From NCBI GenBank assembly GCA_000004985.1, contig GG738887.1: 64,000 nucleotides of DNA; one strand, written 5' to 3'. Origin of the DNA: Naegleria gruberi. Its lineage: Eukaryota. Under the pieces are notes generated by a model. The model had not been told where the DNA came from. It saw only the letters and a list, made by a program, of their open reading frames with translations, and made no database searches. The position numbers and the translations under genes were made by a program. Shown here piece by piece: positions 14,589 to 36,546 of the stretch; the stretch's first letter is position 1, and every line of letters starts with the position of its first letter.

Positions 14589-15854
14589 ATGCATCAATAC
14601 AACAAACAAAAAAACCGAATGAAACGATCCTTTGATGATTGTGCTTCGGAGGTACCACCAACATCACAACCATCACAGCATTATGATTCTGATGGAAGGT
14701 TGATGATGATGACTTCATCTCTACCCAATCATAATCACAATAACAACAATAATAATAATAGTAATAGTAATTTTAATAGTAGTGCATTGATGGATAATGA
14801 TCATCATACAACATTGATAGAAACTACTCCGATGAGTAACAATGACAATTATATGATTGATAATAATAATAACAATATGAAGAAAATTAAGAAGAATTCA
14901 TCACTGTCCTATTTTCATAATTTTAATGGTCATCATAATAGTCAGTATCAAACAACATCAACATTGATAACTATGAATGGTTGTTCGGGAATGAAAACAA
15001 GCCAGTCAGAGTTTGAATTGATTGGATGCATTGGAAGTTATGGTTCTCAGAATGGTCAATTCAAGAATCCATCTGATGTGGCTATTGATTTCAAAAATCA
15101 ATTAATATTTGTTGTGGATACAGATAATAGACGTATTCAGGTTTTTGATGAGTCAACTCTGACATTCAAGTACATGTTTACGACACCATTCAAACCAAAT
15201 GCAGTGACAGTTCATTGGGATCACACTTTAATTATTAGTTTCACTCGAGATTCATTGATTTGTAAATATGATTTTAATGGAAATGAGATATGGAGATGGG
15301 GAGGAGTTACAACAAAGAATGTAATGGATTCTCCAACAGGTGTTGTGGTTGACTATGAGGGAAATATCTATGTTTGTGATTGGTTTAAACATAGAATTGT
15401 AGTTTTTTCTCCAGGTGGTGAATTACTGAAATCGATAGGATCTATGGGAAAGGAATATGGTCAATTCTCATTCCCAAGAGATATTGACATTGACAGTGCT
15501 GGGAATATCATTATTTCTGACAGTGGAAATAATCGCATACAGATACTGAAATCTAATGGAGAATTTATAAGTAGTTTTGGAAGTATTGGAAATGATAAGG
15601 GAGAATTTCAAGCACCAAACTCTGTTTTTGTGGACAAGTCAACTGGTGATATATTTCTTACAGAGTGGGATTCACATAGAATTTCAAAATTTCATCCTAG
15701 CAATCCCTTTTCTGGTTCTACTTGCATTGGTAGCTTTGGAAACCATGAAAATTCACTGAAATATCCTTCTGGAATTGCATTCTGCTACGGGTCATCTCGT
15801 TTGTTTATTGTTGATACTGGAAATAATAGAATCAAGGTTTACAGAGTTACATGA
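14589..15854 (+). CDS. NHL-repeat (six-bladed beta-propeller) protein with an Asn-rich N-terminus
   Basis: Repeats such as GSQNGQFKNPSDVAIDFKNQLIFVVDTDNRRIQVF, GKEYGQFSFPRDIDIDSAGNIIISDSGNNRIQIL and GNDKGEFQAPNSVFVDKSTGDIFLTEWDSHRISKF fit the NHL consensus. Confidence 0.75.
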   Translation: MHQYNKQKNRMKRSFDDCASEVPPTSQPSQHYDSDGRLMMMTSSLPNHNHNNNNNNNSNSNFNSSALMDNDHHTTLIETTPMSNNDNYMIDNNNNNMKKIKKNSSLSYFHNFNGHHNSQYQTTSTLITMNGCSGMKTSQSEFELIGCIGSYGSQNGQFKNPSDVAIDFKNQLIFVVDTDNRRIQVFDESTLTFKYMFTTPFKPNAVTVHWDHTLIISFTRDSLICKYDFNGNEIWRWGGVTTKNVMDSPTGVVVDYEGNIYVCDWFKHRIVVFSPGGELLKSIGSMGKEYGQFSFPRDIDIDSAGNIIISDSGNNRIQILKSNGEFISSFGSIGNDKGEFQAPNSVFVDKSTGDIFLTEWDSHRISKFHPSNPFSGSTCIGSFGNHENSLKYPSGIAFCYGSSRLFIVDTGNNRIKVYRVT

Positions 15855-16869
15855 TATATTTCTATCAATTTTCAATTTCAAAATCATAAGGACAATGCAA
15901 ATCAAAATGGAGAGAAATGTAAAAGAGTATTATCACTCGTACTATATGAAACTGCTTCGAGAGCTTACCTCTACCGATGCCATGTGTAGATAGATTGTAA
16001 TCAAAAATAAACTATTCTTCTGGTGTAACATAACTTTTTTGAGTGGTTACAAAAGAAATAAAATGAAAAAGATAATTTATTAAGCAGTTAGTTCAATATC
16101 TCTTGGACCTGGGCTTGGTCTTTTCTTCTTCTTCTTGATCATACAACAAATACATATCAATAACACAATAGGTATTATGGCCAGAACAAAAATGATGTAT
16201 TACAAGTTGGAATCATTTTGATTAACACCAACAGAAATGGAGTGATAATAACAGAAATGTTAGTTTTGAATATCATTAACATTAGATGAAACTGAAGCAA
16301 CTGAAACTGTACCCATTTGAGACACATTCAAAGCAGCAATGGCTTCACTAACGGACAGTAACAGTAACAAGAGTTGAAGTTTCAGAGGAGGCCGAAAGAG
16401 AATCATAAATAATTGTCTTGATTTCAATTTAACCAGCTGGTAATTGAGAAGTGATTGATTTCTTTTCAGTTGAATCTCCTACCACTCTGTATTTGAATTC
16501 ATACTTCACAGGAAGTTGAGTATCATACCAACCATTACCACACTTGATTTGGAAATCGTTTTGCAAAGCAACACCTGTAGCAGGAGAAACTTCCATTGTG
16601 TTGTTACCAAAACTCAAACAATTGCTGGAATCACAAGCTAAACAAAATTATAACCTAAATGTTATATTGGAAAATATATTGCATTCAATTTTGAAATTCC
16701 ATATGATTGTCCACCCTTACAAGCAAAATTATCCACCGAAAAAATGTGCACTGACTTTTTAGGATATCTTGACATCTTTTCTCCTATTAAACTCCGAAAC
16801 AAGGACTTTGAAGGACTTTCCAATAAAACAACCAACAACACAAAATCAGAAATAGTATTCAATAAAAAA

Positions 16870-17370
16870 ATGAAGTTTCTTCCACTCGTAACAGCACTCC
16901 TTCTCGTGCTTGGTTTGGCATCAACAATTCAAAGCTCAATAATTCAGAAACGAACATCTTTCGGAATGGAAGGTGGCTGTTCCTCAAGAATTGCATTCGA
17001 AGAATATCAGAACACAACTAATTGCACACCTCAACCCTGTCATATGTTGAATCTCGCTGCAGAACAATTTGACTGTGTAGATCATTTTCCTTCTTTATTT
17101 CCTCGAAATAGTGTTCTTTTTATTGAACATGCCAATAACTCGTGTGATGATCCGAAAATTGTGTCACTCATCAATATTAAGTTTGGTGTTTGCTTTAAAC
17201 ATGGAAGTAGTATTCTGAGTAAATATGGATTGAGTGGTGCCTATATCAATTTTAAGGATTGCAAAACAATTGAAACAGTTATGGATGCATACAATTTTGG
17301 ATGCTCCCATGGTTTTAATGAAACAATTACCAAATCATGTTCAAATGGAGTTTCTTTCAAGTGTTTCTAA
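16870..17370 (+). CDS. Small secreted cysteine-rich protein (166 aa)
   Basis: MKFLPLVTALLLVLGLASTIQS is a signal peptide, followed by 8+ Cys and no other domain. The ORF-track ORF extends upstream to 16744, but the hydrophobic signal sits at the internal Met. Confidence 0.55.
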   Translation: MKFLPLVTALLLVLGLASTIQSSIIQKRTSFGMEGGCSSRIAFEEYQNTTNCTPQPCHMLNLAAEQFDCVDHFPSLFPRNSVLFIEHANNSCDDPKIVSLINIKFGVCFKHGSSILSKYGLSGAYINFKDCKTIETVMDAYNFGCSHGFNETITKSCSNGVSFKCF

Positions 17371-17655: not shown

Positions 17656-17874
17656 GTGGCCCTTCTTGATCAGGAAATTGATGTCGATTCCAAGTGTTCA
17701 AAATATGGTGGAGCTGATTGTAATACATGCCTAGACGGATACACCAACCCTAATTGCATTCCAGTTTGTTTTGGATATGCTGCTAATAATGCATCGGTTT
17801 GCTCTGGACATGGTAATTGCACTTGTGGGAAACTATATATTGGCTCAACATGTTCAACATTCGTAACTCAATAA
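17656..17874 (+). other. Isolated EGF-like cysteine-rich ORF, an orphan exon or gene fragment
   Basis: CSKYGGADCNTCLDGYTNPNCIPVCFGYAANNASVCSGHGNCTCGKLYIGSTC resembles the EGF-like repeats of the kinase gene at 31.4-32.4 kb. It is preceded by an AG acceptor (catccgtag) and has no ATG. Confidence 0.3.
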
Positions 17875-18352
17875 CTACTTTTAACATTCTCTGGCGAATC
17901 ATTGTTCTCCATAGATTATTGATCTTAAATTATCTTTAACAAAACCAACAAGAATTCATTTTCTGTTTATTTCAAATTATTTATTTGAAAAGAAATAACT
18001 CCTTGCAGAACAATACCCTAATACATTAGCGATGGAAACTTTTCTGCCTTTTCAAAGTTGTTTCTTCCAATAATTGTCATCCACACAATTGTTGTCCTCA
18101 ATCATTAAACCTTTTGACATGGTTTCAATAACTTTTATTATAGCGTTAATGAGGTAGCTTAGGAAGCAATGCTTGAATAAATAATTATTGTGGTGTGAGG
18201 ATGATCCATTTTAAGCTTATGCAAAGATTCAATCGTCTTACTTTCTTTAATTTGATAATATCACAGCTGGTGTAGCCATAAAAGTACTGAAAAAGTAAAT
18301 ACCATTCGTGTGATTGAATCTAAAAATAAAATCACAATTTAAAAAAAAAAAT

Positions 18353-20473
18353 ATGCTCTCCTCATCATTTAATAACATGGAGCGTATGCTTGATGATAAT
18401 CATAATAACCTGATACAAACAGGAGATATGATCACTATTCATGTGGACAATAACATATCAAAACCAGCAACATCAACAGAAGGACCTTCGGGAAGTTGTG
18501 AGTATTTGACTGGTAAATTTTCAAAGAGGGCTACTACACCTTCGTACTACCATCTATTGTACAATGATGCTCCAGTCTGTCCACCCGACTTTATTATCAA
18601 TATTAAATTAATAGATATGAATATGACTACTGTATCTATCAAGGTACACAAAGTATTTTTGGCTTTGGAATCATTGTATTTTAGAACTTTGCTCAATTCG
18701 GAATTTACAGAGAGTACTAATTCCGTTGTAGAATTTGAATTAACTTCTGTAGAAAAGGATATATTCGAGCAAATTATTTTGAGATATATTTATGGTGAGA
18801 GAACTTTGGATATTGACAAAGGCTTACCATATGCCTGTACATTATGTCTTGCTCACTATTTGCAAATTTCTCCTCTGGAATGCCAACTTTTGCAACAAAT
18901 GACAAAAACATCAAAGTATACCGAACAACATTTATTGTATTATTCACAACTTCGTGATCACTCCATGTTGGCTGTTAATTCTTCCTTCCTTTCACAATCA
19001 CTGACTGCTTTCGGAAAAGACATTTCAAAGAAACGTGATGAAGTTATGAATTTACCAGTGGAATTTTTCTTGTGGCTTGTTTCGTTGGACAATCTGAACG
19101 TTAGCAATGAGGATGAAGTTTTTGATCTCATTCAAGAGTACATTATCAGAAATGAAAAGTCCATCAGACAAAATAATCCAGAAGGATTTGATCAAAAACC
19201 TGATATTATTGAACAAGTTTGGTCAAATGTGAGAGTTTGCTTCCTTTCCGAAACCAAATTGTTGAGCTTTATGGATCAACCATCTATTTCTACAGATCTC
19301 AAAATATCAATGCTGAGAAAGAAGACAGTGTACAGCATCTATAAGGACAGATACAAGAAGGTACTCGCCACTAAACAACAAGCAAGTACTGAAACTACTG
19401 CTGGAAATGCAAGCATGTCTGTCGAAACTAACAGTGGAACTAACAATGAGAATACTGTAGTCAAGAAGGAACCTGTACCAGCAACAAACGCTACACCTAC
19501 ACCAAGTGCTACCATCATTGCTAACGAGCTTATGATCAATTTGGATGATCCTCAATTCATTAAGAGAGGAAACATTTTGGAACATTTAATTACTGGAAGT
19601 AAGGGTGTCATTCAAATTTGGGATGTCAATACTACCGAATGCCTTTCAACTTTCCCAACAGATTCCTTTGTGAGATGTCTTGCTCTGTACGAACGTCATT
19701 ACTTGTTCAGTGGTGGACACGATAAGAAGATTAAAAAGTGGAACTTGAGAACAAACGAATGTGAATTAGTACTCAAAGGTCACCATGATTATGTTCTCTC
19801 ATTTGCCCTTGTAGATGATTGTTTGTATAGTGCTGGTGGTGTTGGAGATAGTACTGTTAAAAAGTGGAACTTGAAATCTAATCAATTGGAGGCATCTTTG
19901 GAGGGACATCAAAAGGCAGTTCTCAGTCTTATAACTTATGGAGACATGTTTGTATTTTCTGGAGGTGAAGATTCTACAATTAGAAAATGGAATGTAAGAA
20001 CAAACAAATGCGAACTAACAATTCAAGCATCTGTTCATGGTGATGACAAACTTTGGTGCCTTGCCACCTTTGGAGATTCCTTATTTGCAGGTGGATCCAA
20101 AGGAACTATTTATCAATTCAATGTAAATGACGGTAGACTTGAGAGAGAATGGTCAGCTCACGAAAATATTGTCTGGTGTTTGCTTGTACATGAAGATTAT
20201 CTATTCTCTGGCTCAAAGGACAAATGTGTCAAGAGATGGAATCTCAATACACCAAACACTGACATGGAAGGAGCCGATCCAACCAATACGCCCTATGTTT
20301 GTGAGGCCATCATGAGAGAACATACTGATTCTGTAAGAAGTCTCAATGTCTGTAATAATTACTTATTCAGTGGAGGTGGTGACGAAAAGATCATCAAATG
20401 GTCTCTTCTCACAAACCAGAAGGAAGCTGTGGTCACGGCAGCTGAATATATTTGTTCTGCTCTGTTGGCTTAA
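18353..20473 (+). CDS. BTB/POZ domain plus WD40-repeat protein
   Basis: N-terminal BTB region (IKVHKVFLALESLYFRTLLNSEFTES...VVEFELTSVEKDIFEQIILRYIYGE). The C-terminal half has 6-7 repeats of the form SGGHDKKIKKWNLRTNECELVLKGH... Confidence 0.8.
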   Translation: MLSSSFNNMERMLDDNHNNLIQTGDMITIHVDNNISKPATSTEGPSGSCEYLTGKFSKRATTPSYYHLLYNDAPVCPPDFIINIKLIDMNMTTVSIKVHKVFLALESLYFRTLLNSEFTESTNSVVEFELTSVEKDIFEQIILRYIYGERTLDIDKGLPYACTLCLAHYLQISPLECQLLQQMTKTSKYTEQHLLYYSQLRDHSMLAVNSSFLSQSLTAFGKDISKKRDEVMNLPVEFFLWLVSLDNLNVSNEDEVFDLIQEYIIRNEKSIRQNNPEGFDQKPDIIEQVWSNVRVCFLSETKLLSFMDQPSISTDLKISMLRKKTVYSIYKDRYKKVLATKQQASTETTAGNASMSVETNSGTNNENTVVKKEPVPATNATPTPSATIIANELMINLDDPQFIKRGNILEHLITGSKGVIQIWDVNTTECLSTFPTDSFVRCLALYERHYLFSGGHDKKIKKWNLRTNECELVLKGHHDYVLSFALVDDCLYSAGGVGDSTVKKWNLKSNQLEASLEGHQKAVLSLITYGDMFVFSGGEDSTIRKWNVRTNKCELTIQASVHGDDKLWCLATFGDSLFAGGSKGTIYQFNVNDGRLEREWSAHENIVWCLLVHEDYLFSGSKDKCVKRWNLNTPNTDMEGADPTNTPYVCEAIMREHTDSVRSLNVCNNYLFSGGGDEKIIKWSLLTNQKEAVVTAAEYICSALLA

Positions 20474-25776: not shown

Positions 25777-27711
25777 ATGAAACGAATAAAACAAAAGGAC
25801 AAGAAGAGAAAGTTTCTTGATCACTTCGCTTCCAATCATATCCAACCAAGTAAATATCTACTAATCAGTCCAGGTGATGATGAAAATATTAGCAAGGCAC
25901 TTCCGAAGCCTTCAATTGATGATGAAGAAGAAATTCATCATTTTCCAATAGAGCAATATACTGCTCAGCACACCCATCACGGGAGATCATTACTAGATAT
26001 TGGTTCCGATTGTCTCTTGGAAATTATCAAATTTCTCGAATTAGATAATAATTATTCTTCATATATGAGAGTTTGCAAAAGTTTCTCCAGATTGCTAATT
26101 CCCCTCTTTTTGAATCAAACACGTATAATTTATGAAACCAAGGAACATTTGAAGAGTTTGAGAGAGCACATCATTGATAATGACTATAATAATGATGATG
26201 GTAGAGATGGATTGTTTTCTGAATGTGCCACTTGGAAAGTTTCATTGTGTCGTAATGATGATGATGAGGATGAACAGTGGTCTGAGGTTGGAAATGAAGA
26301 TGAGGAACAGTGGTCTGATGATGAGGATGTTTTGGAGGTTAATGATTGTACTTTTCAGAGGAAATTAATACCCTTTGGAAGTCCTTTGTGTAGGGAAACT
26401 ATTAAGGATCAGTTTTGGCTAGTTCAGGATAAGATTGACTTGCAGAGTTATAAGAAACTTGTGGAAAAGGAGCTTAAACTTAACGAGAAGGAACAAGGAC
26501 TGTATGAAATTAATCCATTTGTGTTTCAGGAAAAGATTGATAGAGAGAAAGGAATGATAGAGTCGTATATTAATGATGTTCAAGAATCTATCCATGTTGA
26601 TTGTGGAAATCCTATTTGGCTATCTTATGATGATCCAATATTTACAGATGATGAGAGATTTAACATTTGTCAAATAGAATATCAGCACATTGCCTTTCAT
26701 GCATTGAGAAGTGGTATTTCAAGATTGTCTAAACAAGGAGGTGTATTGCTTTACGAACCAGCTATAATGGAGGATATGTTCTATCAATTGAAAAAGTTTA
26801 TATATTTGATTATTAAGGATGCTTACGAAACTAAATTTCCCAACAAGACAGAAGAATTGCAGTTTGAAGAATCTCTGGAGCAGTACTCTAGGTATTGTAT
26901 AGATCCCAACGACAAAAGTCTTCCTTGTTTTGATGATAATTTGGATACGGATAAGAAATTAAGCGAAAATGATATAATCGCTTCATTTAAGAAAATGACA
27001 GGTAAATCATTTTTATTTGGAAAGGAAAACGATCCCTATGACTTGAATGAATATCAAGTTACTAAGCCAGAAGAGCAAGAGCAAAATATTGTCGCTGAGG
27101 ATGATTCTACAAGTGATTATTCGAGTGAGGATGATTCTGAAGAGGAGCAAGTTAATTCAGATTTTGAAATTTTACAATTTCCAAAACCAATAGATGCGGA
27201 AAACTTTATCGATGATTCCAATATTTTCAATTTTGACTTGGAAAATCTTGGAGATTCACTTCCTGAACTGTTAATGAAAGTTTCCATTCGTGTTCATGAA
27301 GAAGTTTATGGAAAGGAGAGAGCTCACATAGAAAAGTTATACTTGCAGAATTGGTATGGAAATGGTGATTTGTTTTTTATGAACTGTTCAAAGCAATTGG
27401 ATAATCCACAACCTATTGTAGAAGAATCTCAACCTGAGGAATTAGAAAGTATTGATAATTCTGAAATAGTGGATTCTTCGTTGTACATAGCTGAGAATAA
27501 GCAAATTGAAATTGACAAGAAAGAGGACTTGGAGTATTTTGGATATTCTCTTTATGAAGATGACTTTGAAGAATTACCAATTCTGGAGGATGAAGATTCG
27601 GATTTGGAATTACAACAATCTACAGAGGAGGAATCTCTTCGATATCAATTAAGAAGAATGCTTAGAGAGCAATCATACGAGTGTATTGTCAATTATTTCG
27701 AGAAGAGGTAA
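25777..27711 (+). CDS. Hypothetical acidic protein with an N-terminal F-box-like motif, 644 aa
   Basis: LLDIGSDCLLEIIKFLELDNNYSSYMRVCKSFSRLL is F-box-like. It is followed by a long D/E-rich region. Confidence 0.55.
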   Translation: MKRIKQKDKKRKFLDHFASNHIQPSKYLLISPGDDENISKALPKPSIDDEEEIHHFPIEQYTAQHTHHGRSLLDIGSDCLLEIIKFLELDNNYSSYMRVCKSFSRLLIPLFLNQTRIIYETKEHLKSLREHIIDNDYNNDDGRDGLFSECATWKVSLCRNDDDEDEQWSEVGNEDEEQWSDDEDVLEVNDCTFQRKLIPFGSPLCRETIKDQFWLVQDKIDLQSYKKLVEKELKLNEKEQGLYEINPFVFQEKIDREKGMIESYINDVQESIHVDCGNPIWLSYDDPIFTDDERFNICQIEYQHIAFHALRSGISRLSKQGGVLLYEPAIMEDMFYQLKKFIYLIIKDAYETKFPNKTEELQFEESLEQYSRYCIDPNDKSLPCFDDNLDTDKKLSENDIIASFKKMTGKSFLFGKENDPYDLNEYQVTKPEEQEQNIVAEDDSTSDYSSEDDSEEEQVNSDFEILQFPKPIDAENFIDDSNIFNFDLENLGDSLPELLMKVSIRVHEEVYGKERAHIEKLYLQNWYGNGDLFFMNCSKQLDNPQPIVEESQPEELESIDNSEIVDSSLYIAENKQIEIDKKEDLEYFGYSLYEDDFEELPILEDEDSDLELQQSTEEESLRYQLRRMLREQSYECIVNYFEKR

Positions 27712-27773
27712 AAAATTGTTACCACTTTCGAATAATTATTTAATGCAAATTAAAATAATAATTACGTAAAAAA

Positions 27774-28973
27774 ATGAAACGATCTCATCACGAAAAAACG
27801 AATTCGGAAGATGATGATCAACCGGAAGAAGTCAACAACAGTAAAAAACAAGCTATTGATCAAAACTCGGATTCGTATTATAGTATTGGTATGAAATATT
27901 TGGATGGAGTCGAAGTTGAAAAAGATGAAGTCAAAGCCTTTGAATGGTTTATGAAAGGAGCTGAACAAGGATGTATTGAATCACAGAATAGAGTTGGTTT
28001 GCTTTATCATAAAGGAATGGGAGTTCAAAAAGATTATTCTAAATCATTTGAATGGTATTCGAAAGCTGCAGAAAAGGGGGATGCCAAAGCACAGTTCAAT
28101 ATTGGAGCATTGTATAAGAATGGCCAAGGTGTGAAAAAGAATTATTCCAAAGCCGAGGAGTGGTTTCTAAAGGCTGCTGAAAAGGGAAATGAATCTGCAC
28201 ATCGAAATCTACCACCACTATATTACAAAATGAAAGATTATTCAAAATCATTTGAATGGTATTTAAAACTTGCTGAAAAAGGAGATGCCAAAGCTCAATA
28301 CAGTATTGGAAAAGCATACAAAAAAGGTGAAGGAATTGAGAAAGATTATTCAAAGGCCTTTGAATGGTTTTTAAAATCAGCTGAAATTGGAAATGCAGAT
28401 GCACAATTTAATGTTGGAAATGCCTACAAGAAAGGTGAAGGAATTGAAAAAGATATTGTTAAATCGTATGAATGGTTTTTGAAGGCAGCTGAAAATGGTA
28501 ATAGACTAGCACAATGCTGTACTGCAAAACGGTATTTTATTGGAGAAGGAGTAGAAAAAGATAGTTCCAAAGCATTTGAATGGTTTTTGAAAGCTGCAGA
28601 AAATGGTGAAACAGAAGCACAATTTACTGTTGGATCAATGTTTTACAATGGTGAAGGAATCGAAAAAGATATTTCTAAGGCATTCGAATGGTATGTAAAA
28701 GCTGCTGAAAAGGGCCAAATAGAGGCACAATTTTATGTCGGATTAGCATATCATGATGGTGATGGAACAGACCAAGATTATTCGAAATCATTTGAATGGT
28801 TTTTAAAAGCTGCCGAAAGTGGCTATACAGAGGCACAATATTTTGTTGGATTGGCATATGAGCTTGGTACAGGAGTTGAGAAAGATAGTTCTAAAGCATT
28901 TGAATGGTATTTAAAAGCAGCTACAAACGGAAATGAAAAGGCGCAAAATAATATCAATTCATTTTCATTTTAA
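27774..28973 (+). CDS. Sel1-like repeat (SLR/HCP-like) protein
   Basis: At least 9 tandem repeats of A(F/E)EW(F/Y)(L/M)KAAE(K/N)G...AQ...G..Y..G.GV.KD..K. Confidence 0.85.
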   Translation: MKRSHHEKTNSEDDDQPEEVNNSKKQAIDQNSDSYYSIGMKYLDGVEVEKDEVKAFEWFMKGAEQGCIESQNRVGLLYHKGMGVQKDYSKSFEWYSKAAEKGDAKAQFNIGALYKNGQGVKKNYSKAEEWFLKAAEKGNESAHRNLPPLYYKMKDYSKSFEWYLKLAEKGDAKAQYSIGKAYKKGEGIEKDYSKAFEWFLKSAEIGNADAQFNVGNAYKKGEGIEKDIVKSYEWFLKAAENGNRLAQCCTAKRYFIGEGVEKDSSKAFEWFLKAAENGETEAQFTVGSMFYNGEGIEKDISKAFEWYVKAAEKGQIEAQFYVGLAYHDGDGTDQDYSKSFEWFLKAAESGYTEAQYFVGLAYELGTGVEKDSSKAFEWYLKAATNGNEKAQNNINSFSF

Positions 28974-29258
28974 TTACTCTTTCATAAATGAGAAAGACGT
29001 AGTAATATTAGTTTGGTTGATGTTAAGGATACGTGCTTAATAGAACTTATATTTGTTTTAAAGATCTAGTATGATTCTCTAACTGTAACCAATTACAACT
29101 AATTGATTTGGGTTCTAATGTTCATATGAGATGGAGATAAATGAGTGATTGTTGACATTAAGGAAAAATTGTTAAATTAGAGGAGCGACTTGACTCGGAC
29201 ATTTTAGGAAGCGAACAATGGATGAGAAGTGAGGAGTCCTTCACACCATCAAAAAAAA

Positions 29259-32200
29259 ATGTGTCGATTTGACAAGTGGCATTTAGTAATTCTTCTTCTT
29301 CTTGTACTTGTATTTTCAGTCCACTGCTTTCAACCAAGCTATAATCTCTCCAAAGTAGCAGGTGGAGGATCAATAATTGGTGATGGCCTTGTCAGTAGTC
29401 AAGTATTACTGTCATCACCTTCAGGGATAATTGTTTCAAACTCTGAAATAATATTCTGTGATACTAACAATCACAGAATACGTAAAATAGACACCAATGG
29501 TGTTGTTTCGACAATTGCAGGTACCGGCAATGCAGGATATTCAGGTTAGTTTCGTGTGATTTCGCTTGGATTCTCAAACGCAAATTTATTGATCAAATTA
29601 GGAGATGGAGCTAATGCATTATTTGCACAGCTAAACTCACCACAAGGAATTGGATTACTTTCGGGTGGTGCAATTATTGTTTCAGATACATTAAATCACC
29701 GTATTCGAAAGATTGAAAATGGGATCATTTCAACAATTGCAGGAACTGGATCACCAGGTTATACAGGTAAGTATTTAGTTTGCACTTTCTTATTGATCTT
29801 TAATCATTCGTCCTAATCCCAAACATTATTCGAAACTAGCCAGTGGAACTGCCACCAGTGCACTTATCAACACACCACTTGGATTGGCAGTTTACAATAA
29901 TGAAGTTTACTTTGCCGATAGTCTAAATCATGTTATTCGAAAGATCTCCTCAAGTGGTTCCATCAGCAATGAACAAGGAGTTGGCGCCACTTCTGGATCT
30001 CAAACTTTACCATTACAGATGAACACACCAACCGGAGTTGTATTTCAATCGGGAACAATGTACATGGCAGATTCAAAGAATTTGAGAGTTTGTTATCCTG
30101 GATTTTTGGGAATTATTAATTGCATTTCAACAAGTAGTGAACCGATTGGTTTGGGAGTTTATAGTGGAGTTGTGTATGCTGCCTTATTAGGGAATGTCAT
30201 TGTGTCCTTGCAGAGTGGAACTCCAATTGTGGCAGGAACTGGAACGAGTGGATTTTCAGGAGATGGAGGAGTGGCAACATCAGCTCTATTGAATGGGCCT
30301 TCTGCATTGACTTTTGATTCGAGTGGAAATATGCTCATTTCAGATTCTTCCAATAATAGAATTAGAAAAGTTACAAATGGAATCATTTCAACATTGGCTG
30401 GAACCAGTAATAGAAACTTTGGAAATGGAGCGGTGGGAACATTGGTTTCATTATCTTCACCAAATAGTGTTTATTATGCTGGAAATGATGATTCAACAGG
30501 TGGTATTTTGATTGCTGACATGAATAATCATGTTTTGAGAAGATTGAAAGATGGAAGAATTTATAATGTGATTGGAAATGTTGGTATCTCAGGAAGCAAT
30601 AGTGGAAATGGAGTGACTGTCAATGCTGCAACTTTAAATTCACCTCCATTTGTAATGAAGAGATTTGGTGATTTGATTTACTTTTTGGACAGTGGTGGGT
30701 GTGCATTGAGGAGAATTGAATCGAGTGGTGTTTTAAAATTGGTGGTTGGAAGTTGTAATTCTGGAAATCAAGATTATTTCCTTTCCAAATCTTTTGACAT
30801 TTCAAGTGATGGAATTATTTATATTGCCGATTATTACAATCATAGAATTGCCAAGTTTGTGATTGGTGGCACGAGTTTGACCACACTTGCTGGAGGTTCT
30901 CTGAAAGGATTTGCAGGTATGTTCATTTAGAATATCATTTCGAATATTTGTGTGAAAATTATAGATGGAGTTGGATCGAATGCCAATTTAAACTATCCTG
31001 ACAGTATTTCCATTGGCTTAAATAACATGCTCTACTTTTCAGATCGTGACAATCATGCCATCAGATCTGTTTCAACAATTAATGCTTTGGTAACAACTAT
31101 TTCAGGAAGTGGAATTGCAGGTTATACGGGAGATGAAGGTCCAGCTATTTATGCGAAGCTCAATTTACCTGGATCGATTGAAGTGGCTCTAAATGGTGAT
31201 ATCATTTTCATGGACAAGGGAAATCAAAGAATTAGAAAGATTACAAAATATGGAAATATTTTTACTTTATATGGAAATGGTTCGACTAGTGTTTTTAATA
31301 ATGCGAATGGGTTGACACTTGGTGGAAGTGGTGAAATTTACATTGCAGACAGTGGTAATAACCTTATCAAAATGTTATCTTCTGCAAAATGCACAAATGG
31401 AACTTTTTACAATTCTTCATCATTCGAATGTCAATGTCCATCTGGTTACTATGGAGAAACCTGTTTAGAATATGATTGTGCAGGAGTGAACAGCAATTCA
31501 TCTCTGGTTTGCTCTGGAAGAGGTACATGTTTCAAGCCAAACACATGCAACTGCTCTGCACCTTACTTTGGTGGATATTGTGAGCAGTACTATTGTAATG
31601 GAGTGAATGTTTTAAATTCGAGTGTTTGTTCCTCGAATGGTCAATGTACAGCTCCAGATAATTGCACTTGTTCATTTGGAACTTTTGGTTTGAATTGTGA
31701 AAATGCGTATTGTCAAGGAATTGTTTCATGGAACGAAACTGTTTGCAATTCGAGAGGTAAATGCATTGGCTATAATAAGTGCACATGTAATGATGGTTTT
31801 TATGGCAATAATTGTGAATTTTATAATTGTTATGGCATTAAGAACACAGACAGCTCAGTGTGTTCTGGAAATGGAATTTGTTCCAAAATTGACAATTGCA
31901 CTTGTTTGGATGGATATTACGGAAATAATTGTTCTGATTTCAATTGTGTTGGAGAGCTATTCACTTCTGGAAAGAATTTGTGCCAAAATAATGGATCATG
32001 CACTGGACCAGGTGATTGTACATGTTTACCTGAATGGGGTGGAAGTATTTGTCAATATTTCAAGTGTTTCAACAAGACACATGTTGATCCAAAGGTTTGC
32101 TCTGCACATGGTCAATGTATGTCCTTTAATAATTGTTCATGTGATTCGAGATGGTTTGGCAAAGATTGTAGTGTGACCACTTGTTTTGCGAAATTATCAA

Positions 32201-35200
32201 ACGATTCGAATGTAGTTTGTTCCTCACATGGTCAATGTTTAAATCCAGATCAGTGCACTTGCAACAATGGATATAGTGGAAGTGAGTGTGAATATAGAGT
32301 GTGCTATGGTTTGAATCATACAGATGCAAATGTTTGTTCTTCACATGGTCAATGTACAGCACCAAATACTTGTAAATGTGAAAATGGTTTCGTTGGAGAT
32401 AATTGTGAATATCATCAAGTTTATTTGGATATTGCAAATGCATTGATTTATTCAAATTATGATTCTCTTCTCAATATTTCAAGAAATGCCAGTGTTAATG
32501 ATCAACAAGTATTGAATAGTGAATGTTCAGATTTATTGGAAAGTTCAGAATTGGCCAAATTGGGTGAAAGTGATTTGATTTCATGTTATTGGACCAATAA
32601 TTATTTTAAAATCAAATTGGGATATAATCACATGATTCAACATTTATCAACATTGAAATTGAATTATTTCAATATTTCACTGCAAGTCAATTCAAATTCA
32701 TCATTAACTTTACTCAACCAGAGAACATTCGCTTCTTCAATGGATGTTTTATTGTTATCCATTCCATCCACACAAGATTTCATTATCAAATCTAACAGTG
32801 ATGATTATTATCATACATTCAAGAAAATATCAAAGAGTTGGACATGTGAAAATTGTCCTCAATCACTTGTCAATTATTTAACAAATTATGAGAATAAGAG
32901 TATGATTTTAATACCAAGTACATTATTGAATAGTATTCCATTGGATTCTTCCTATTCAAAAATTCTATCACTCAAGTATTCGTCAATGAATTCCATTCAA
33001 AAATTATTGACATCAAGTGACAAGACAAGAATTGAATCGAGTAAGAATTTACCACCCTATTTCACATGGCATGGTGAGAATGTGAAGGATGCACAATTTA
33101 AATGTGTTGGTCATAATTGTATTGTGGAAAGTTCATTGAATTCAATGAATAGTTCAATTTCATTCACATTCTCTGGATTTTTCAGTTTATTGAATTCACA
33201 ATTTTCACAAAAACAAATGTTCAGATTGGTGAATGTTTATAATAATGAATTGGTTGATAGTGAATATTCATCCAATGCACAAATTGTTGGATTTCAATTG
33301 AAAACTTATGTTTCCACTTCACTTTCTTATTATTTCTCCTACACAACATTTGATAGATTGGATCATGTTTTAACCAATGTTAATAGAACTCTATCTCTTT
33401 CTGATGATTCTACATTTGCAATTTCAATTTTCAATCCAGATCCATTCATTTCAACCTTCACCTTATCAGATTATTTCACATACAATTATGAATTTTATCA
33501 AGTCAACTCAATTTCTAATAGCAATTTAAAGTTAATAACAAGTAGTAATCAAAAATCATTGAATATAGATGCTACCCAATTGAATTTATCAGAGGGAACA
33601 TATCTAGTCAACTTGACACTCACAGTTTCCAAATCTTATGTCACAATTCCATATTATTTTTTCGGATATATTCAATTGCATTCTCAATCAAATGTTCCAA
33701 AATTAACAATTGATCAATTACCTGCTATTTATGCTTCTAATAAGGATTTACAATTGAAAGTCTTGATTCAATCATCAAGTTCTATTTTAAACTATAAATG
33801 GAAATTAAAAGATGGTATTGTAAAGGAAAGAGAATTAATTGAACAATTATTACAAAATTCACAATTGACTCAACTCACATCTAACGTGTATAAGAGTGAA
33901 ATTACAATTAATAGTCAATATTTATTGGAAGGTGAATTTATTTCATTTGATTTTTCAGTTTCGAATATGAATGGCATTTCAAATGTTTCACTTTCAACAA
34001 GAATTGACGAATCTCCAAGATTTTCATGTGAATATTTCAACCTAAAGAATGAATTTACAAATTATGCATTTGAAAGTTTACTTTCCATTTCATGTTTCAA
34101 TTTACCTGAAGAACCAATTTCAAGTTTCAATATTGAATTTCATTCACAGAAAAATGGAAAGAGAATGAATGTCATTTCGAATACTTTGAAAAAGAATGTC
34201 ATTACAAGAATACCTTTCTATTCATTTGATGAACAGCAGGTGAATCTTGTTGTGAAATTAGTGAATAGATATGGTTCAGTTTCACAAATTTCAAGAAATA
34301 TTTCAGTTTTACCTCCATTGACCATTTACAATTCAGGAAATTCAATTGCATCAAGATTTAATTATCTGAAACAATCTTATTATAATTTGAAATTGAATGA
34401 ACCATTGAGAATTGATACTGCTCATTCAATTTATTCCTTAATGAGTATTCTCATTCAAAACGAAACCATTTCGAATATTACAAGACAATTAGTCAATGAA
34501 ATATCAAGCAATGAATTGTCAACATTTAATTCTCTATTGAAAGATATGATTATTCAATTGAAGAGCATTCAATCATTGAGTTACAAAGTTGATGAAAAGT
34601 TTATTCAACTTTCACTTCCAATCATTTCACAAATTTATTCGATTTTGGATAATTTATCATTGGATGACAGTTGGGTTTCAGATATTTCTACATGGCTTGA
34701 TTGGATTTATTCTGGAATGTCAAGTGCAAAACAATATTATTCTGAAACATTGTTAGCAACTATACTTTCGAATGAACATTATGAAGAATTGAAATTAATT
34801 CAAAATATACTTTCTAATAGATATTCGAATCGATTGGACAAACAAGAATTGATTTCAAAATATAGAGCTCAATATTTAATGTTGACCGGTTTATCAGATG
34901 ATTCATCCTATCAAGTTTATCCAGTTGAAGTTGCTTCTCAATTGAATGGCAAGTCAATCATGACAACTATCAATCAAGAAATTCAAATCCAAGCCACACT
35001 TCCATCAGATTTAACCAGTCAATTGTCAAGTATTTCAGATAATTCACAATTATTCTTTTCATCTTCTCTAATTAGCAATGACAAGACATTGAATAATATT
35101 TTATCAAATATACCTGTTTTGGACTTGTCAATTTATTCATCAGATGGATCATTGACAAGTGTGAATAATTTATTGAATCCAATTCAAGTGAAATTTAATA

Positions 35201-36546
35201 ATCTCTTTACAGATTACAAAGTTAACACTAATTTATCATGTGTTTATTTTGATTCTTCATTGAATACATGGTCAACCAATGGAATTTCATTCAAATCAAC
35301 AATTACAAAACAAGAAAATGGAAAATTATACTTTGATATGGAATGTAACACAACTCACTTGTCATTATTCTCAGTTCAAGAATTGGATTTTGTTTATCCA
35401 GCAAACTCCACTTCAACTGACTCTAATTTGGGATTAATTCTTGGATTGGCACTTGGCATTTCAATTCCAGTAATTTTATTGATCATTCTTGCATTTATTA
35501 TCATTGTAATTGTGTTATCAGTATTTGTTTGGAGATTGAAAAAGAAGAGTAAGGCACAAATGGCTAAATTTGATATTGAAATGACAGGAACAGACTTCCC
35601 GTCAGATGCCAGCATGTTCTTGACACCTCTTGTCAGCGTTTCAGGAAGCTCAAGTAATAATGAAAGTTTTAATCCACTTTCAAGATATTTAGATTTGGTC
35701 AGAATAGGACAAGGTGCATTTGGATCAGTTTTCAGGGCAATGGACTCAAAAACCAATACAATGAAAGCAATTAAGGTGATGAGATATCAATCCAATGAAG
35801 AATTGAATGGATTTATGAAGGAAGGAACTCAATTAATGAATGTGAGCCATCCAAATATTTTGAAAGTGAATGATTTCTTCATTAGTCAAGATAATTTATT
35901 GTGTATTGATATGGATTTTTATGAGAAGGGAGATTTGGTTCAATTGACTTATGATTCTTTCATTTGTTCTGAAAAGATCTTGTTGCAAATTATTTATCAA
36001 ATGTTGAATGCATTGAATTTTATTCACACATCAATGAAACTCATTCACAGAGATATCAAACCATCAAATATTTTCATCAAATCAATTGACAATGATCATA
36101 TTGAAATTGTAATTGCAGATTTTGGATTGGCAAGAGCTGATCAAGGTTCTGCTCACAAATCATATGCTGGAACTCCTCTCTTTATGGTATGTTTGTTGTA
36201 TTTTATATTCAAATTTAATCCATATTTCTAATAATTCTTTATTGGAAACTTTCAGTCACCTGAACTTGGATATGGTGGAAAATACTATTTCAATACAGAT
36301 ATTTATAGTTTAGGAGTAACACTTTATCAAATCATGACCAAAGACACTCAAACTTCAATCAGTCAATTATTAATTACCAAAGATAAAATTGAAGTGAATG
36401 CAATTCTCAAACAAAAATTTGAAGAATGCAAAATTTACTCATCCAACCTCATTGATTTGGTCATTTCAATGTTAGAAAAGGATTTAACAATCAGACCACA
36501 AGCAAAAACTCTCCTCAATAATCCACTCTTCAAATCATTCCAATAA
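29259..36546 (+). CDS. Receptor-like Ser/Thr protein kinase with extracellular NHL repeats and EGF-like repeats. 5 exons (29259-29544, 29602-29766, 29840-30916, 30965-36186, 36256-36546), about 2346 aa.
   Basis: Signal peptide MCRFDKWHLVILLLLVLVFSVHC. NHL repeats (NHRIRKI...ISTIAGTG..GYSGDG). About 11 EGF-like Cys repeats (31.4-32.4 kb). A long Ser/Asn-rich ectodomain. TM helix ILGLALGISIPVILLIILAFIIIVIVLSVFVW followed by RLKKK. Kinase subdomains IGQGAFGSV, AIKVM, HRDIKPSN, DFGLAR and GTPLFM|SPE. Splice junctions keep the ORF-track frames (donors GTTAGT, GTAAGT, GTATGT, GTATGT). Confidence 0.8.

What the first reader, a model, noticed from the sequence alone, without database searches (positions are those of the whole stretch)
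29259..36546. Very large receptor-like kinase: signal peptide - NHL repeats - ~11 EGF repeats - long S/N-rich ectodomain - TM - Ser/Thr kinase
Spliced across 5 exons, all phases consistent with the ORF-track frames, this encodes a ~2350-aa type-I membrane protein. Its extracellular NHL beta-propeller repeats and EGF-like modules are metazoan-style. The cytoplasmic domain is an intact kinase (GxGxxG, VAIK-like AIKVM, HRDIKPSN, DFG, SPE). Single-pass receptor kinases with folded extracellular ligand-binding domains are rare in fungi, and I do not know of an NHL+EGF ectodomain on a fungal kinase. A separate cytosolic NHL-propeller paralogue (14589..15854) and an orphan EGF-like exon (17656..17874) lie nearby. 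This suggests local domain duplication and shuffling.
Basis: partly seen in the sequence, partly recalled or inferred. Interest (0 to 1): 0.72.

Follow-up and report, generated by a model that had tools for sequence, protein, structure and literature searches.

The report
Naegleria receptor kinase with GAIN domain
The gene is real, but it belongs to the amoeba Naegleria gruberi rather than a fungus, and its "S/N-rich" stretch contains a self-cleaving GAIN/GPS domain (the hallmark of animal adhesion GPCRs and polycystin-1) placed in front of a single membrane helix and a Ser/Thr kinase, a combination I could not find described in the literature.

Summary
The 5-exon gene at 29259..36546 (+) holds up. 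It has four GT..AG introns of 48-73 nt and no internal stop, and it encodes 2346 aa. It matches the public Naegleria gruberi "predicted protein" P0001 except for one EGF repeat that the public model splices out. The fungal (Glomeromycotina) framing is therefore wrong.

Domain order: signal peptide, about 12 NHL blades, 8.5 teneurin-type EGF modules, a roughly 630-aa beta-rich region, a GAIN domain, one TM helix, and a Ser/Thr kinase with all catalytic motifs intact.

The evidence for it:
- A family profile hits only adhesion-GPCR GAIN domains among PDB sequences (best E 3.8e-6).
- The His-Leu-Ser cleavage triad sits in the turn before the last strand, 21 residues before the TM helix.

Four N. 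gruberi paralogues (one a pseudokinase) and one N. fowleri gene share this architecture.

The most likely function is a surface adhesion or mechano-sensing receptor that cleaves itself at HL|S. In that reading, the kinase output depends on whether the N-terminal fragment stays bound. Cleavage and signalling are inferred, not shown.

The nearby NHL gene (24% identity) and the EGF-like ORF do not support local domain shuffling.

The parts
29259..36546 (+). Whole gene: 5 exons (29259-29544, 29602-29766, 29840-30916, 30965-36186, 36256-36546), CDS 7041 nt, 2346 aa
   Evidence: Splice model and translation. Identical to N. gruberi P0001 apart from one 33-aa EGF segment.
29259..29324 (+). Signal-peptide-like N-terminus (aa 1-22, MCRFDKWHLVILLLLVLVFSVH)
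   Evidence: Hydropathy peak of 2.23 at the N-terminus. No dedicated signal-peptide predictor was available.
29334..31386 (+). NHL-repeat region (aa 26-650), about 12 blades, probably two six-bladed beta-propellers. It spans introns 1-3.
   Evidence: Pfam NHL 9.2e-28 and TEN_NHL 1.2e-23. The blade count comes from reading the recurring D-x-x-N-x-R-I-R-K-I strands in the translation. The two-propeller arrangement is inferred.
31387..32409 (+). EGF region (aa 651-991): one 4-Cys half-module plus eight 6-Cys teneurin-type EGF modules with a period of about 39 aa
   Evidence: Pfam EGF_2 3.3e-27, EGF_TEN 1.1e-25, EGF_Teneurin 6.1e-22. 52 Cys at regular spacing.
32117..32215 (+). 99-nt segment that the public model P0001 removes as an intron (GTATGT..TGTAG). 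It encodes exactly one EGF repeat.
   Evidence: The repeat is retained in paralogues P0002 and P0003, so it is either a spurious intron or an exon-like alternative splice. This is unresolved without RNA data.
32410..34311 (+). Beta-rich ectodomain region (aa 992-1625), probably tandem Ig/FN3-like sandwiches. The family is restricted to Naegleria.
34312..35382 (+). GAIN domain (aa 1626-1982): helical subdomain A (about aa 1637-1817) and beta-sandwich subdomain B (about aa 1825-1982)
35239..35382 (+). GPS motif (aa 1935-1982): C1935-x9-W1945-x3-G1949 ... C1970-NTT-H1974-L1975-S1976-L-F1978-SVQE
   Evidence: These columns are nearly invariant in alignment A2. The HMMER alignment places them on the C..W..GC..CxCxHLTxFAV motif of ADGRL3 and ADGRG1. 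Pfam GPS reaches the gathering score in the homologue P0130 (23.2 against 22.5 bits).
35356..35364 (+). Predicted autoproteolysis triad His1974-Leu1975 | Ser1976
   Evidence: In the model it lies in the 4-residue turn (model residues 374-377) between the penultimate and last beta-strands. HL[ST] is kept in all five GAIN-kinase genes, including N. fowleri. Cleavage itself was not tested.
35428..35526 (+). Single transmembrane helix (aa 1998-2030), followed by the basic stop-transfer sequence WRLKKKSK
   Evidence: It is the only strong internal hydrophobic segment, with maximum Kyte-Doolittle 3.69.
35527..35694 (+). Juxtamembrane segment (aa 2031-2086) with the family-specific motif FPS..S.F..PL.S.S...ESFNPLSRY
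   Evidence: Conserved in P0002, P0003, P0041, P0121 and P0123.
35695..36531 (+). Ser/Thr protein kinase domain (aa 2087-2342). It spans intron 4 (36187-36255), which splits GTPLFM|SPE.
   Evidence: Pkinase 3e-50. GQGAFG, AIK, HRDIKPSN, DFG and SPE are present. The closest solved kinases are SLK, MST3, CDPK, CaMK1, NEK and ULK3, with E about 1e-28 to 1e-24.

Best explanation
The gene encodes a Naegleria gruberi type-I surface receptor. Its large adhesive ectodomain consists of two NHL propellers, a rod of teneurin-type EGF modules and a beta-sandwich stalk. This ectodomain is joined to the membrane through a GAIN domain, and its cytoplasmic output is a catalytically competent Ser/Thr kinase.

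Proposed mechanism:
1. During biosynthesis the GAIN domain cleaves itself between Leu1975 and Ser1976.
2. The roughly 1950-aa N-terminal fragment stays non-covalently bound, because the last beta-strand (SLFSVQE) remains buried in the GAIN sandwich.
3. Binding of the NHL/EGF part to a surface, prey cell or matrix, combined with traction from the crawling amoeba, strains or removes the N-terminal fragment.
4. This changes the oligomeric or conformational state of the remaining stalk-TM-kinase fragment, and so changes kinase activity.

Shown: the gene structure, the domain composition, the GAIN fold and GPS motif with an intact HLS triad, the single TM helix, the intact kinase catalytic motifs, and conservation of the architecture in N. 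gruberi paralogues and in N. fowleri.

Inferred: the cleavage itself, retention of the N-terminal fragment, force or ligand dependence, and coupling to kinase activity.
For: - The gene model is in frame, and the ectodomain and kinase share one exon.
- Pfam finds NHL, EGF and Pkinase.
- The organism and paralogues are all Naegleria.
- GAIN by sequence: profile A2 hits only aGPCR GAIN domains in the PDB, including ADGRL3 3.8e-6, ADGRG1 8e-6, ADGRG3 2.2e-5 and ADGRF1 8e-5.
- The T-H-L-S turn lies between the last two strands. This is where Arac et al. 2012 place the scissile bond (PMC3321182).
- C1935 and C1970 correspond to the CL1 C801-C832 disulphide. Both partners of the other disulphide are absent together.
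- HL[ST]xF and the Cys/Trp/Gly positions are kept in all five GAIN-kinase genes across N. gruberi and N. fowleri and in 19 homologues.
- Related Naegleria NHL-EGF-GPS-TM proteins reach the Pfam GPS gathering score, and UniRef names one of them a 'GAIN-B domain-containing protein'.
- The domain sits 21 residues before the only TM helix, in line with the rule that GAIN domains immediately precede the first TM helix.
- The paralogue P0122 is encoded by one uninterrupted 6.5-kb ORF on an independent contig.
Against: - There is no experimental or transcript evidence for expression, cleavage or kinase activity.
- Pfam GPS does not hit this protein itself. Paralogue P0003 scores only 8.6 bits, E 3.8.
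- Only one of the two canonical GPS disulphides and one of the two Trp residues are present. Several animal GAIN domains with an intact HL[ST] triad are nevertheless uncleaved, as with BAI3.
- Foldseek against the PDB gave no significant hit. The best GAIN match was 7qu8 at E 1e-2, although with probability 0.97.
- The linker between the last strand and the TM helix is about 15-21 residues, against 5-6 in aGPCRs.
- A single-pass protein has no 7TM pocket to receive a tethered agonist, so the best-understood GAIN signalling mode cannot apply as such.
- One paralogue is a pseudokinase (HGN in place of HRD), so kinase catalysis is not essential to every family member.
Confidence: 0.6

Rival explanations
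1. It is a conventional ligand-induced receptor Ser/Thr kinase or adhesion molecule. In this reading the GAIN-fold domain is only an uncleaved structural stalk, and signalling comes from ligand-driven clustering of the NHL/EGF ectodomain, as in other protist and plant receptor kinases.
For: - One of the two GPS disulphides and one Trp are missing.
- Uncleaved GAIN domains exist in animals; the BAI3 crystal structure is uncleaved.
- Close relatives P0041 and P0121 have NHL-EGF-TM-kinase with no GAIN domain at all, so the kinase family can work without it.
Against: - The H-L-S/T triad and the hydrophobic last strand are conserved across N. gruberi paralogues and N. fowleri, and in about 14 shorter homologues. 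A passive spacer would not need this.
- In the model the triad sits in the tight turn typical of cleavage-competent GAIN domains.
Confidence: 0.3
2. After GAIN autoproteolysis the ectodomain is shed. The membrane stub then undergoes regulated intramembrane proteolysis in a Notch-like manner, releasing a soluble kinase into the cytoplasm.
For: - This rests only on analogy with autoproteolytic juxtamembrane domains that feed into regulated intramembrane proteolysis (SEA/SEAL domains, abstract of PMC10556640).
- The stalk between the GPS and the TM helix (about 15-21 aa) is longer than in aGPCRs and could be reached by a sheddase.
Against: No sequence feature here points to an intramembrane protease site, and nothing relevant was tested.
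Confidence: 0.05
3. It is a gene-model artefact or a decaying pseudogene. Either two neighbouring genes (ectodomain protein and kinase) have been wrongly joined, or the locus is not expressed.
For: - No transcript data were available.
- Public models of this family are inconsistent. P0001 drops an EGF repeat, and P0002 and P0003 miss the last intron.
Against: - The NHL blades, the EGF modules, the GAIN domain, the TM helix and kinase subdomains I-VIII lie in one uninterrupted 5.3-kb ORF in DNA of about 33% GC.
- The same architecture is found in three N. gruberi paralogues, in N. fowleri, and in a continuous ORF on contig L001.
- All catalytic motifs are intact.
Confidence: 0.03

Closest known systems
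Adhesion GPCRs (latrophilin/ADGRL, BAI/ADGRB, GPR110/ADGRF1, GPR126/ADGRG6, CELSR)
   Same: - A large modular adhesive N-terminal region that includes EGF modules.
- A GAIN domain with a GPS motif and an H-L-S/T triad directly before the first TM helix.
- Probably the same autoproteolysis chemistry and a non-covalent pairing of N-terminal and C-terminal fragments.
   Different: - One TM helix instead of 7TM, so there is no orthosteric pocket for a tethered agonist and no G-protein coupling.
- The output is a Ser/Thr kinase.
- Only one of the two GPS disulphides is present.
- Subdomain A is longer (about 8 helices).
- The linker to the membrane is longer.
Polycystin-1 / sea-urchin REJ family (GAIN + REJ, 11TM)
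   Same: - A GAIN/GPS domain outside the GPCR class, preceded by a long beta-rich ectodomain.
- A related N. lovaniensis NHL-EGF protein (P0053) carries a significant Pfam REJ domain (4.6e-12).
   Different: - There is no REJ hit in this protein or its close paralogues.
- It has a single TM helix and no PLAT or channel-like region.
- It has a kinase output.
Naegleria NHL-EGF-GPS-TM short-tail proteins (P0127, P0128, P0130, P0131, P0133, P0134) and N. fowleri 7TM-RGS proteins with GPS motifs and EGF repeats (PMC9283941)
   Same: - Same genus.
- The same NHL + EGF + GAIN-B/GPS module in front of the membrane.
- These show that Naegleria reuses the GPS module on several membrane anchors.
   Different: - The short-tail proteins have only a short basic cytoplasmic tail. 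They also lack the helical subdomain and the 630-aa beta-rich region.
- The 7TM-RGS proteins signal through RGS domains.
- Only the five genes listed here pair the module with a kinase.
Protist, plant and animal single-pass receptor kinases (Entamoeba and amoebozoan TMKs, plant RLKs, metazoan RTKs/RSTKs)
   Same: Type-I topology: a signal peptide, a folded ligand-binding ectodomain, one TM helix and a cytoplasmic eukaryotic protein kinase.
   Different: - The kinase is closest to the STE20, CaMK and NEK types, not to TK, TKL or the TGF-beta-receptor type.
- The ectodomain combination NHL + EGF + GAIN does not come up by keyword in the 2023 cross-kingdom survey of transmembrane kinases. That paper contains none of the words Naegleria, NHL, GPS or EGF.
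Teneurins
   Same: The Pfam models that fit best are the teneurin-type EGF (EGF_TEN, EGF_Teneurin) and the teneurin NHL domain (TEN_NHL).
   Different: - Teneurins are type-II proteins with a YD-repeat shell and a toxin-like C-terminus, and they have no kinase and no GAIN domain.
- The domain order here is NHL then EGF, the reverse of teneurins.
- By score, the NHL region is equally close to bacterial NHL-repeat proteins.

Membership tests
GAIN domain (GPCR-autoproteolysis-inducing) superfamily | Two-subdomain fold of about 320 residues: helical subdomain A followed by beta-sandwich subdomain B, ending in the GPS strands | tested here: met
GAIN domain (GPCR-autoproteolysis-inducing) superfamily | Detectable sequence homology of the GPS/subdomain-B region to known GAIN domains | tested here: met
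   The family profile A2 hits only aGPCR GAIN domains in the PDB, best E 3.8e-6. The single sequence gives no hit and no Pfam GPS hit. Homologue P0130 reaches the Pfam GPS gathering score.
GAIN domain (GPCR-autoproteolysis-inducing) superfamily | Canonical GPS residues: four Cys (two disulphides), two Trp, and the H-L-T/S cleavage triad followed by a hydrophobic strand | tested here: inconclusive
   The H1974-L1975-S1976 triad and the LFSV strand are present. Only Cys1 and Cys3 (C1935, C1970) and one Trp (W1945) are present; Cys2 and Cys4 are both absent.
GAIN domain (GPCR-autoproteolysis-inducing) superfamily | Location immediately N-terminal to the first transmembrane helix | tested here: met
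   S1976 lies 21 residues before the TM helix that starts at 1998. The rule is stated in PMC3321182.
GAIN domain (GPCR-autoproteolysis-inducing) superfamily | Actual cis-autoproteolysis, with the two fragments staying associated | not testable with these tools
   This needs protein biochemistry.
Adhesion GPCR (class B2) | Seven-transmembrane domain after the GAIN domain | tested here: not met
   Only one internal hydrophobic segment (1998-2030) is present, followed by a kinase domain.
Polycystin-1 / REJ family | REJ domain (PF02010) upstream of the GPS, and an 11-TM region with a PLAT domain downstream | tested here: not met
   No REJ or PLAT hit even at E<=10. There is a single TM helix. An iterative profile search does not link the region to the REJ-bearing P0053.
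Eukaryotic protein kinase, Ser/Thr-specific, catalytically active | Gly-rich loop, VAIK Lys, HRDxKxxN catalytic loop, DFG, APE-type motif, and a full-length Pkinase match | tested here: met
   Pkinase 3e-50 over positions 4-263 of 263. GQGAFG, AIK, HRDIKPSN, DFG and SPE are present. Enzymatic activity was not tested.
Tyrosine kinase / TKL receptor kinases (metazoan RTKs, plant RLK-Pelle) | Kinase domain grouping with TK or TKL (HRDLxxxN-type catalytic loop, best match to PK_Tyr_Ser-Thr) | tested here: not met
   The catalytic loop is HRDIKPSN. Pkinase scores 171.5 bits against 104.4 bits for PK_Tyr_Ser-Thr. The nearest solved kinases are SLK, MST3, CDPK, CaMK1, NEK and ULK3. No formal kinome phylogeny was done.
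   The protein matches the N. gruberi predicted protein P0001 apart from one model difference. All same-architecture homologues are from N. gruberi or N. fowleri.

The most novel reading that the evidence does not exclude
GAIN-domain autoproteolysis acts here as a force-sensitive or ligand-sensitive switch for a single-pass Ser/Thr kinase. This would be a third kind of output for the GAIN module, besides 7TM GPCRs and polycystin-type channels, and it occurs in a discoban amoeba far from animals. If so, the ancestral role of GAIN would be a breakable junction between the N-terminal and C-terminal fragments. That role would not depend on tethered-agonist activation of a 7TM bundle. It would also give a simple natural system for studying GAIN mechanics without a GPCR.
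Probability: 0.35. Interest if true: 0.8.

Novelty: new variant of a known kind. Interest (0 to 1): 0.6.

Why it matters
GAIN domains are studied almost only as the activation module of adhesion GPCRs and polycystin-1. The reviews I read treat the GAIN-7TM linkage as a holozoan invention and say only that GAIN occurs 'in other genes' of non-holozoans (PMC12716839; PMC3321182).

A conserved Naegleria family in which GAIN sits before a single TM helix and an active kinase shows that the module can be wired to a different output. It raises a testable question: does autoproteolysis, or shedding of the N-terminal fragment, regulate a kinase?

An orthologue exists in the pathogen N. fowleri (FDP41_013523). 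A surface-exposed, kinase-coupled adhesion receptor there could matter for host-cell contact.

It also flags errors in the public gene models: a dropped EGF repeat in P0001 and missed last introns in P0002 and P0003.

Tried and rejected
1. The search for homologous proteins with the middle region alone returned nothing, and with GAIN+TM+kinase it returned only P0121. It did not even recover the self-match P0001, which local phmmer finds easily. These two searches say nothing about how widely the family is distributed. The exhaustive representative search was used for that instead.

2. Pfam on the middle region gave no REJ, GPS or GAIN hit for this protein. The single sequence against PDB sequences also gave nothing. 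Only the 20-sequence family profile revealed the GAIN relationship.

5. Local duplication or shuffling with the NHL gene at 14589-15854 and the EGF-like ORF at 17656-17874 is rejected. The NHL gene is 24% identical, the EGF-like match is sub-threshold, and there is no other paralogue in the window.

No transcript-level check of the splice model was therefore possible.

7. Eight literature searches found no paper describing a GAIN/GPS plus protein kinase architecture or this Naegleria family. The library covers only open-access papers and bioRxiv.


Full report
**Observation.**
- The region 29259..36546 (+) contains four short GT..AG introns of 57, 73, 48 and 69 nt.
- The five exons are 29259-29544, 29602-29766, 29840-30916, 30965-36186 and 36256-36546. 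They join in frame to a 7041-nt CDS of 2346 codons with no internal stop.
- Exon 4 is a single uninterrupted ORF of 1759 codons (30952..36231) in DNA of about 30-36% GC. An ORF of that length there cannot be chance.
- That one ORF already contains the last NHL blades, every EGF module, the membrane helix and kinase subdomains I-VIII. The possibility of 'separate genes for ectodomain and kinase' is therefore excluded by the sequence itself.

**Organism.**
- The best database match (P0001; 97% identity, 100% coverage, 2313 aa) is a 'predicted protein' of Naegleria gruberi.
- P0001 is identical to my model except that it removes 32117-32215 as a 99-nt intron (GTATGT..TGTAG). That segment encodes exactly one EGF repeat.
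- The repeat is retained in the paralogues P0002 (78% identity) and P0003 (40%). The public intron is therefore probably spurious, or at most an alternative splice.
- In the other direction, the public models of P0002 and P0003 read through the last intron and end in '...GTPLFMV'. P0041, P0121 and P0123 confirm the spliced 'GTPLFMSPELG'.
- The window is therefore heterolobosean (Discoba), not fungal.

**Domain composition.**
- Pfam finds NHL (9.2e-28), TEN_NHL (1.2e-23), EGF_2 (3.3e-27), EGF_TEN (1.1e-25) and Pkinase (3e-50, residues 2087-2342).
- Hydropathy shows an N-terminal signal-like segment and one strong internal segment at 1998-2030. Of 35 N-glycosylation sequons, 33 lie N-terminal to that segment.
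- Reading the recurring D-x-x-N-x-R-I-R-K-I strands gives about 12 NHL blades. Two six-bladed propellers is an inference from that count.
- The 52 cysteines of residues 651-991 form one 4-Cys half-module plus eight 6-Cys modules, not about 11.
- The kinase has GQGAFG, AIK, HRDIKPSN, DFG and SPE.
- Its nearest solved relatives are STE20-like SLK and MST3, CDPK/CaMK1, NEK and ULK3, with E about 1e-28 to 1e-24. It is an ordinary Ser/Thr eukaryotic protein kinase, not a TK or TKL.

- Just before the membrane I noticed C-VYFDSSLNT-W-STNG...ME-C-NTT-H-L-S-LFSV, which resembles a GPS motif.
- Pfam does not report GPS for this protein, and the single sequence finds nothing in the PDB.
- An exhaustive profile search with the aligned middle regions of the three paralogues (A1) found only 22 proteins among 1.84 billion representatives:
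  - Two further full-length relatives. P0122/P0142 is from N. gruberi and is a pseudokinase with HGN in place of HRD. P0123/P0143 is from N. fowleri (FDP41_013523).
  - A set of shorter proteins that match only the last 150-180 residues. Those whose full sequences I read have NHL repeats and a single TM helix with a short tail, and all but one also have EGF modules. The five I traced came from N. gruberi, N. lovaniensis, the protist Lapot gusevi and unnamed environmental assemblies.
- In those shorter proteins, Pfam GPS covers the whole profile right before the TM helix. It scores 23.2 bits in P0130 (the gathering score is 22.5), 22.4 in P0134 and 20.6 in P0127.
- UniRef already names P0130 a 'GAIN-B domain-containing protein'.

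**Sequence evidence for GAIN.**
- I built a 20-sequence alignment of the region (A2). In it C1935, Y1937, G1949, C1970, H1974, L1975 and F1978 are at least 90% conserved.
- As a profile against all PDB sequences, A2 hit 13 sequences at E<=10, and every one is an adhesion-GPCR GAIN domain. The list includes ADGRL3 at 3.8e-6, ADGRG1 at 8e-6, ADGRG3 at 2.2e-5 and ADGRF1 at 8e-5, followed by ADGRE5, BAI3 and ADGRD1.
- The alignments run over more than 100 residues and place the Naegleria motif on C..W..GC..CxCxHLTxFAV.

**Fold evidence for GAIN.**
- AlphaFold2 on residues 1600-1998 with alignment A2 gave mean pLDDT 85.5 and pTM 0.81.
- The model has about eight helices (model residues 38-218) followed by a beta-sandwich (226-383).
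- T-H-L-S (residues 1973-1976) forms the four-residue turn between the penultimate strand and the last strand (LFSVQE).
- The non-GAIN hits ranked among these are designed helical repeat proteins, which I take to match only the helical half.
- Foldseek alone was not significant. GPR97 had probability 0.97 but E 1e-2.

**Comparison with the published GAIN description.**
- Arac et al. [quoted passage not shown]
- They report two disulphides, C834-C820 and C832-C801 in latrophilin-1, and state that GAIN always immediately precedes the first TM helix.
- The Naegleria kinases keep the equivalent of C801-C832 (C1935-C1970). They lack both partners of the other disulphide, and one Trp.
- The H-L-S/T triad is kept in all five GAIN-kinase genes, including the N. 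fowleri gene.

**The remaining ectodomain (992-1625).**
- This region has no Pfam match.
- It is found only in the Naegleria relatives and in a few short, unnamed fragments from the representative search.
- A more distant N. lovaniensis NHL-EGF protein (P0053) has a significant REJ domain (4.6e-12), but I could not link the two regions.
- I therefore describe it only as a beta-rich, probably tandem-sandwich stalk.

**Family context.**
- N. gruberi has at least four GAIN-kinase genes: this one, P0002, P0003 on the same scaffold, and the pseudokinase P0142. N. fowleri has one.
- P0041 and P0121 have the same kinase and juxtamembrane motif behind NHL-EGF ectodomains without a GAIN domain.
- P0122 is encoded by one continuous 6.5-kb ORF on an independent environmental contig (L001).
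- Published work notes GPS motifs and EGF repeats on N. fowleri 7TM-RGS proteins (PMC9283941). Naegleria thus uses the module on several membrane anchors.
- I found no paper describing a GAIN/GPS domain on a protein kinase.
- The 2023 survey of protist transmembrane kinases contains none of the keywords Naegleria, NHL, GPS or EGF.
- A 2026 aGPCR review mentions only a single-pass splice isoform of Drosophila Cirl as a 1TM GAIN protein.

**Surroundings.**
- The ORF at 14589-15854 is a cytosolic NHL propeller. It is only 24% identical to the receptor's NHL region.
- The ORF at 17656-17874 gives only a sub-threshold EGF_integrin match.
- tblastn with eight family members finds no other paralogue in the window.
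- The neighbouring genes are ordinary: a Sel1-repeat protein, a Dus-family dihydrouridine synthase, a UvrD-like helicase fragment, a BTB-WD40 protein, an actin-related protein and a hydrolase.
- Local domain shuffling is not supported.

**Mechanism.**
- Most likely (confidence 0.6), this is an adhesion or mechano-sensing receptor kinase. The GAIN domain would cleave between L1975 and S1976 during maturation. The large N-terminal fragment would stay docked through the buried last strand. Ligand binding plus traction would strain or remove that fragment, changing the clustering or conformation, and so the activity, of the stalk-TM-kinase fragment.
- Only the anatomy is shown here. Cleavage and coupling to the kinase are inferred by homology.
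- The main rival (0.3) is an uncleaved GAIN stalk on a conventional clustering receptor kinase.
- A Notch-like route through regulated intramembrane proteolysis (0.05) and a gene-model artefact or pseudogene (0.03) are unlikely.

**Verdict.**
- The protein has been in public databases since the N. gruberi genome as an unnamed predicted protein, so it is not a new sequence.
- The architecture NHL-EGF-GAIN-1TM-Ser/Thr kinase appears undescribed. It is a new variant of two known kinds, GAIN-domain receptors and receptor kinases.
- Interest 0.6.

Noticed in passing
window 32117-32215: The public N. gruberi model (P0001) splices out a 99-nt in-frame segment with a perfect GTATGT donor. The segment encodes exactly one EGF repeat and is retained in paralogues P0002 and P0003. 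It is either an annotation error or an alternative splice that removes one module.
   Followed up: partly
P0002 and P0003 (N. gruberi paralogues, not in the window): Both public models end in '...GTPLFMV' followed by junk. They miss the conserved last intron that splits GTPLFM|SPE, so their kinase domains are annotated as truncated.
   Followed up: partly
P0122/P0142 (N. gruberi NAEGRDRAFT_49308); locus L001 634-7134: This paralogue has the same NHL-EGF-GAIN-TM architecture but a degenerate kinase: GSGRTF for the Gly loop and HGNIKTSN for HRD. It is therefore a GAIN-domain receptor pseudokinase. It is encoded as one intron-free 6.5-kb ORF on an environmental contig (ERZ929261).
   Followed up: partly
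window 14589-15854 (+): A 421-aa protein with no signal peptide. It has an N-rich, low-complexity N-terminus and a canonical six-blade NHL propeller (Pfam NHL 3.7e-30). It is only 24% identical to the receptor's NHL region.
   Followed up: yes
window 16744-17370 and 17656-17874 (+): An ORF with an internal signal-like hydrophobic stretch and many Cys but no Pfam hit. About 290 nt downstream lies a Cys-rich EGF-like ORF (EGF_integrin E 0.0095, below threshold). The two may be exons of one small secreted Cys-rich protein.
   Followed up: no
window 27774-28973 (+): A 399-aa protein made almost entirely of Sel1 repeats (9 stretches, E 8.5e-101). It ends 286 nt upstream of the receptor's start codon. 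The preceding 644-aa ORF (25777-27711) has no Pfam match.
   Followed up: no
window 18314-20473 (+): A 719-aa BTB/BACK + WD40 propeller protein.
   Followed up: no
window 26001-32000: A strong positive GC skew (0.19-0.27 per 2-kb bin) runs over the Sel1 gene and the NHL/EGF-coding part of the receptor. It drops to about 0 from 32 kb onwards. This probably reflects the Gly/Cys-rich codon use of the repeats.
   Followed up: no
tool behaviour: The word-indexed homologue search failed to return even the identical database protein when the query was the S/N/T-rich middle region. Negative results from that tool for compositionally biased queries should not be trusted.
   Followed up: yes
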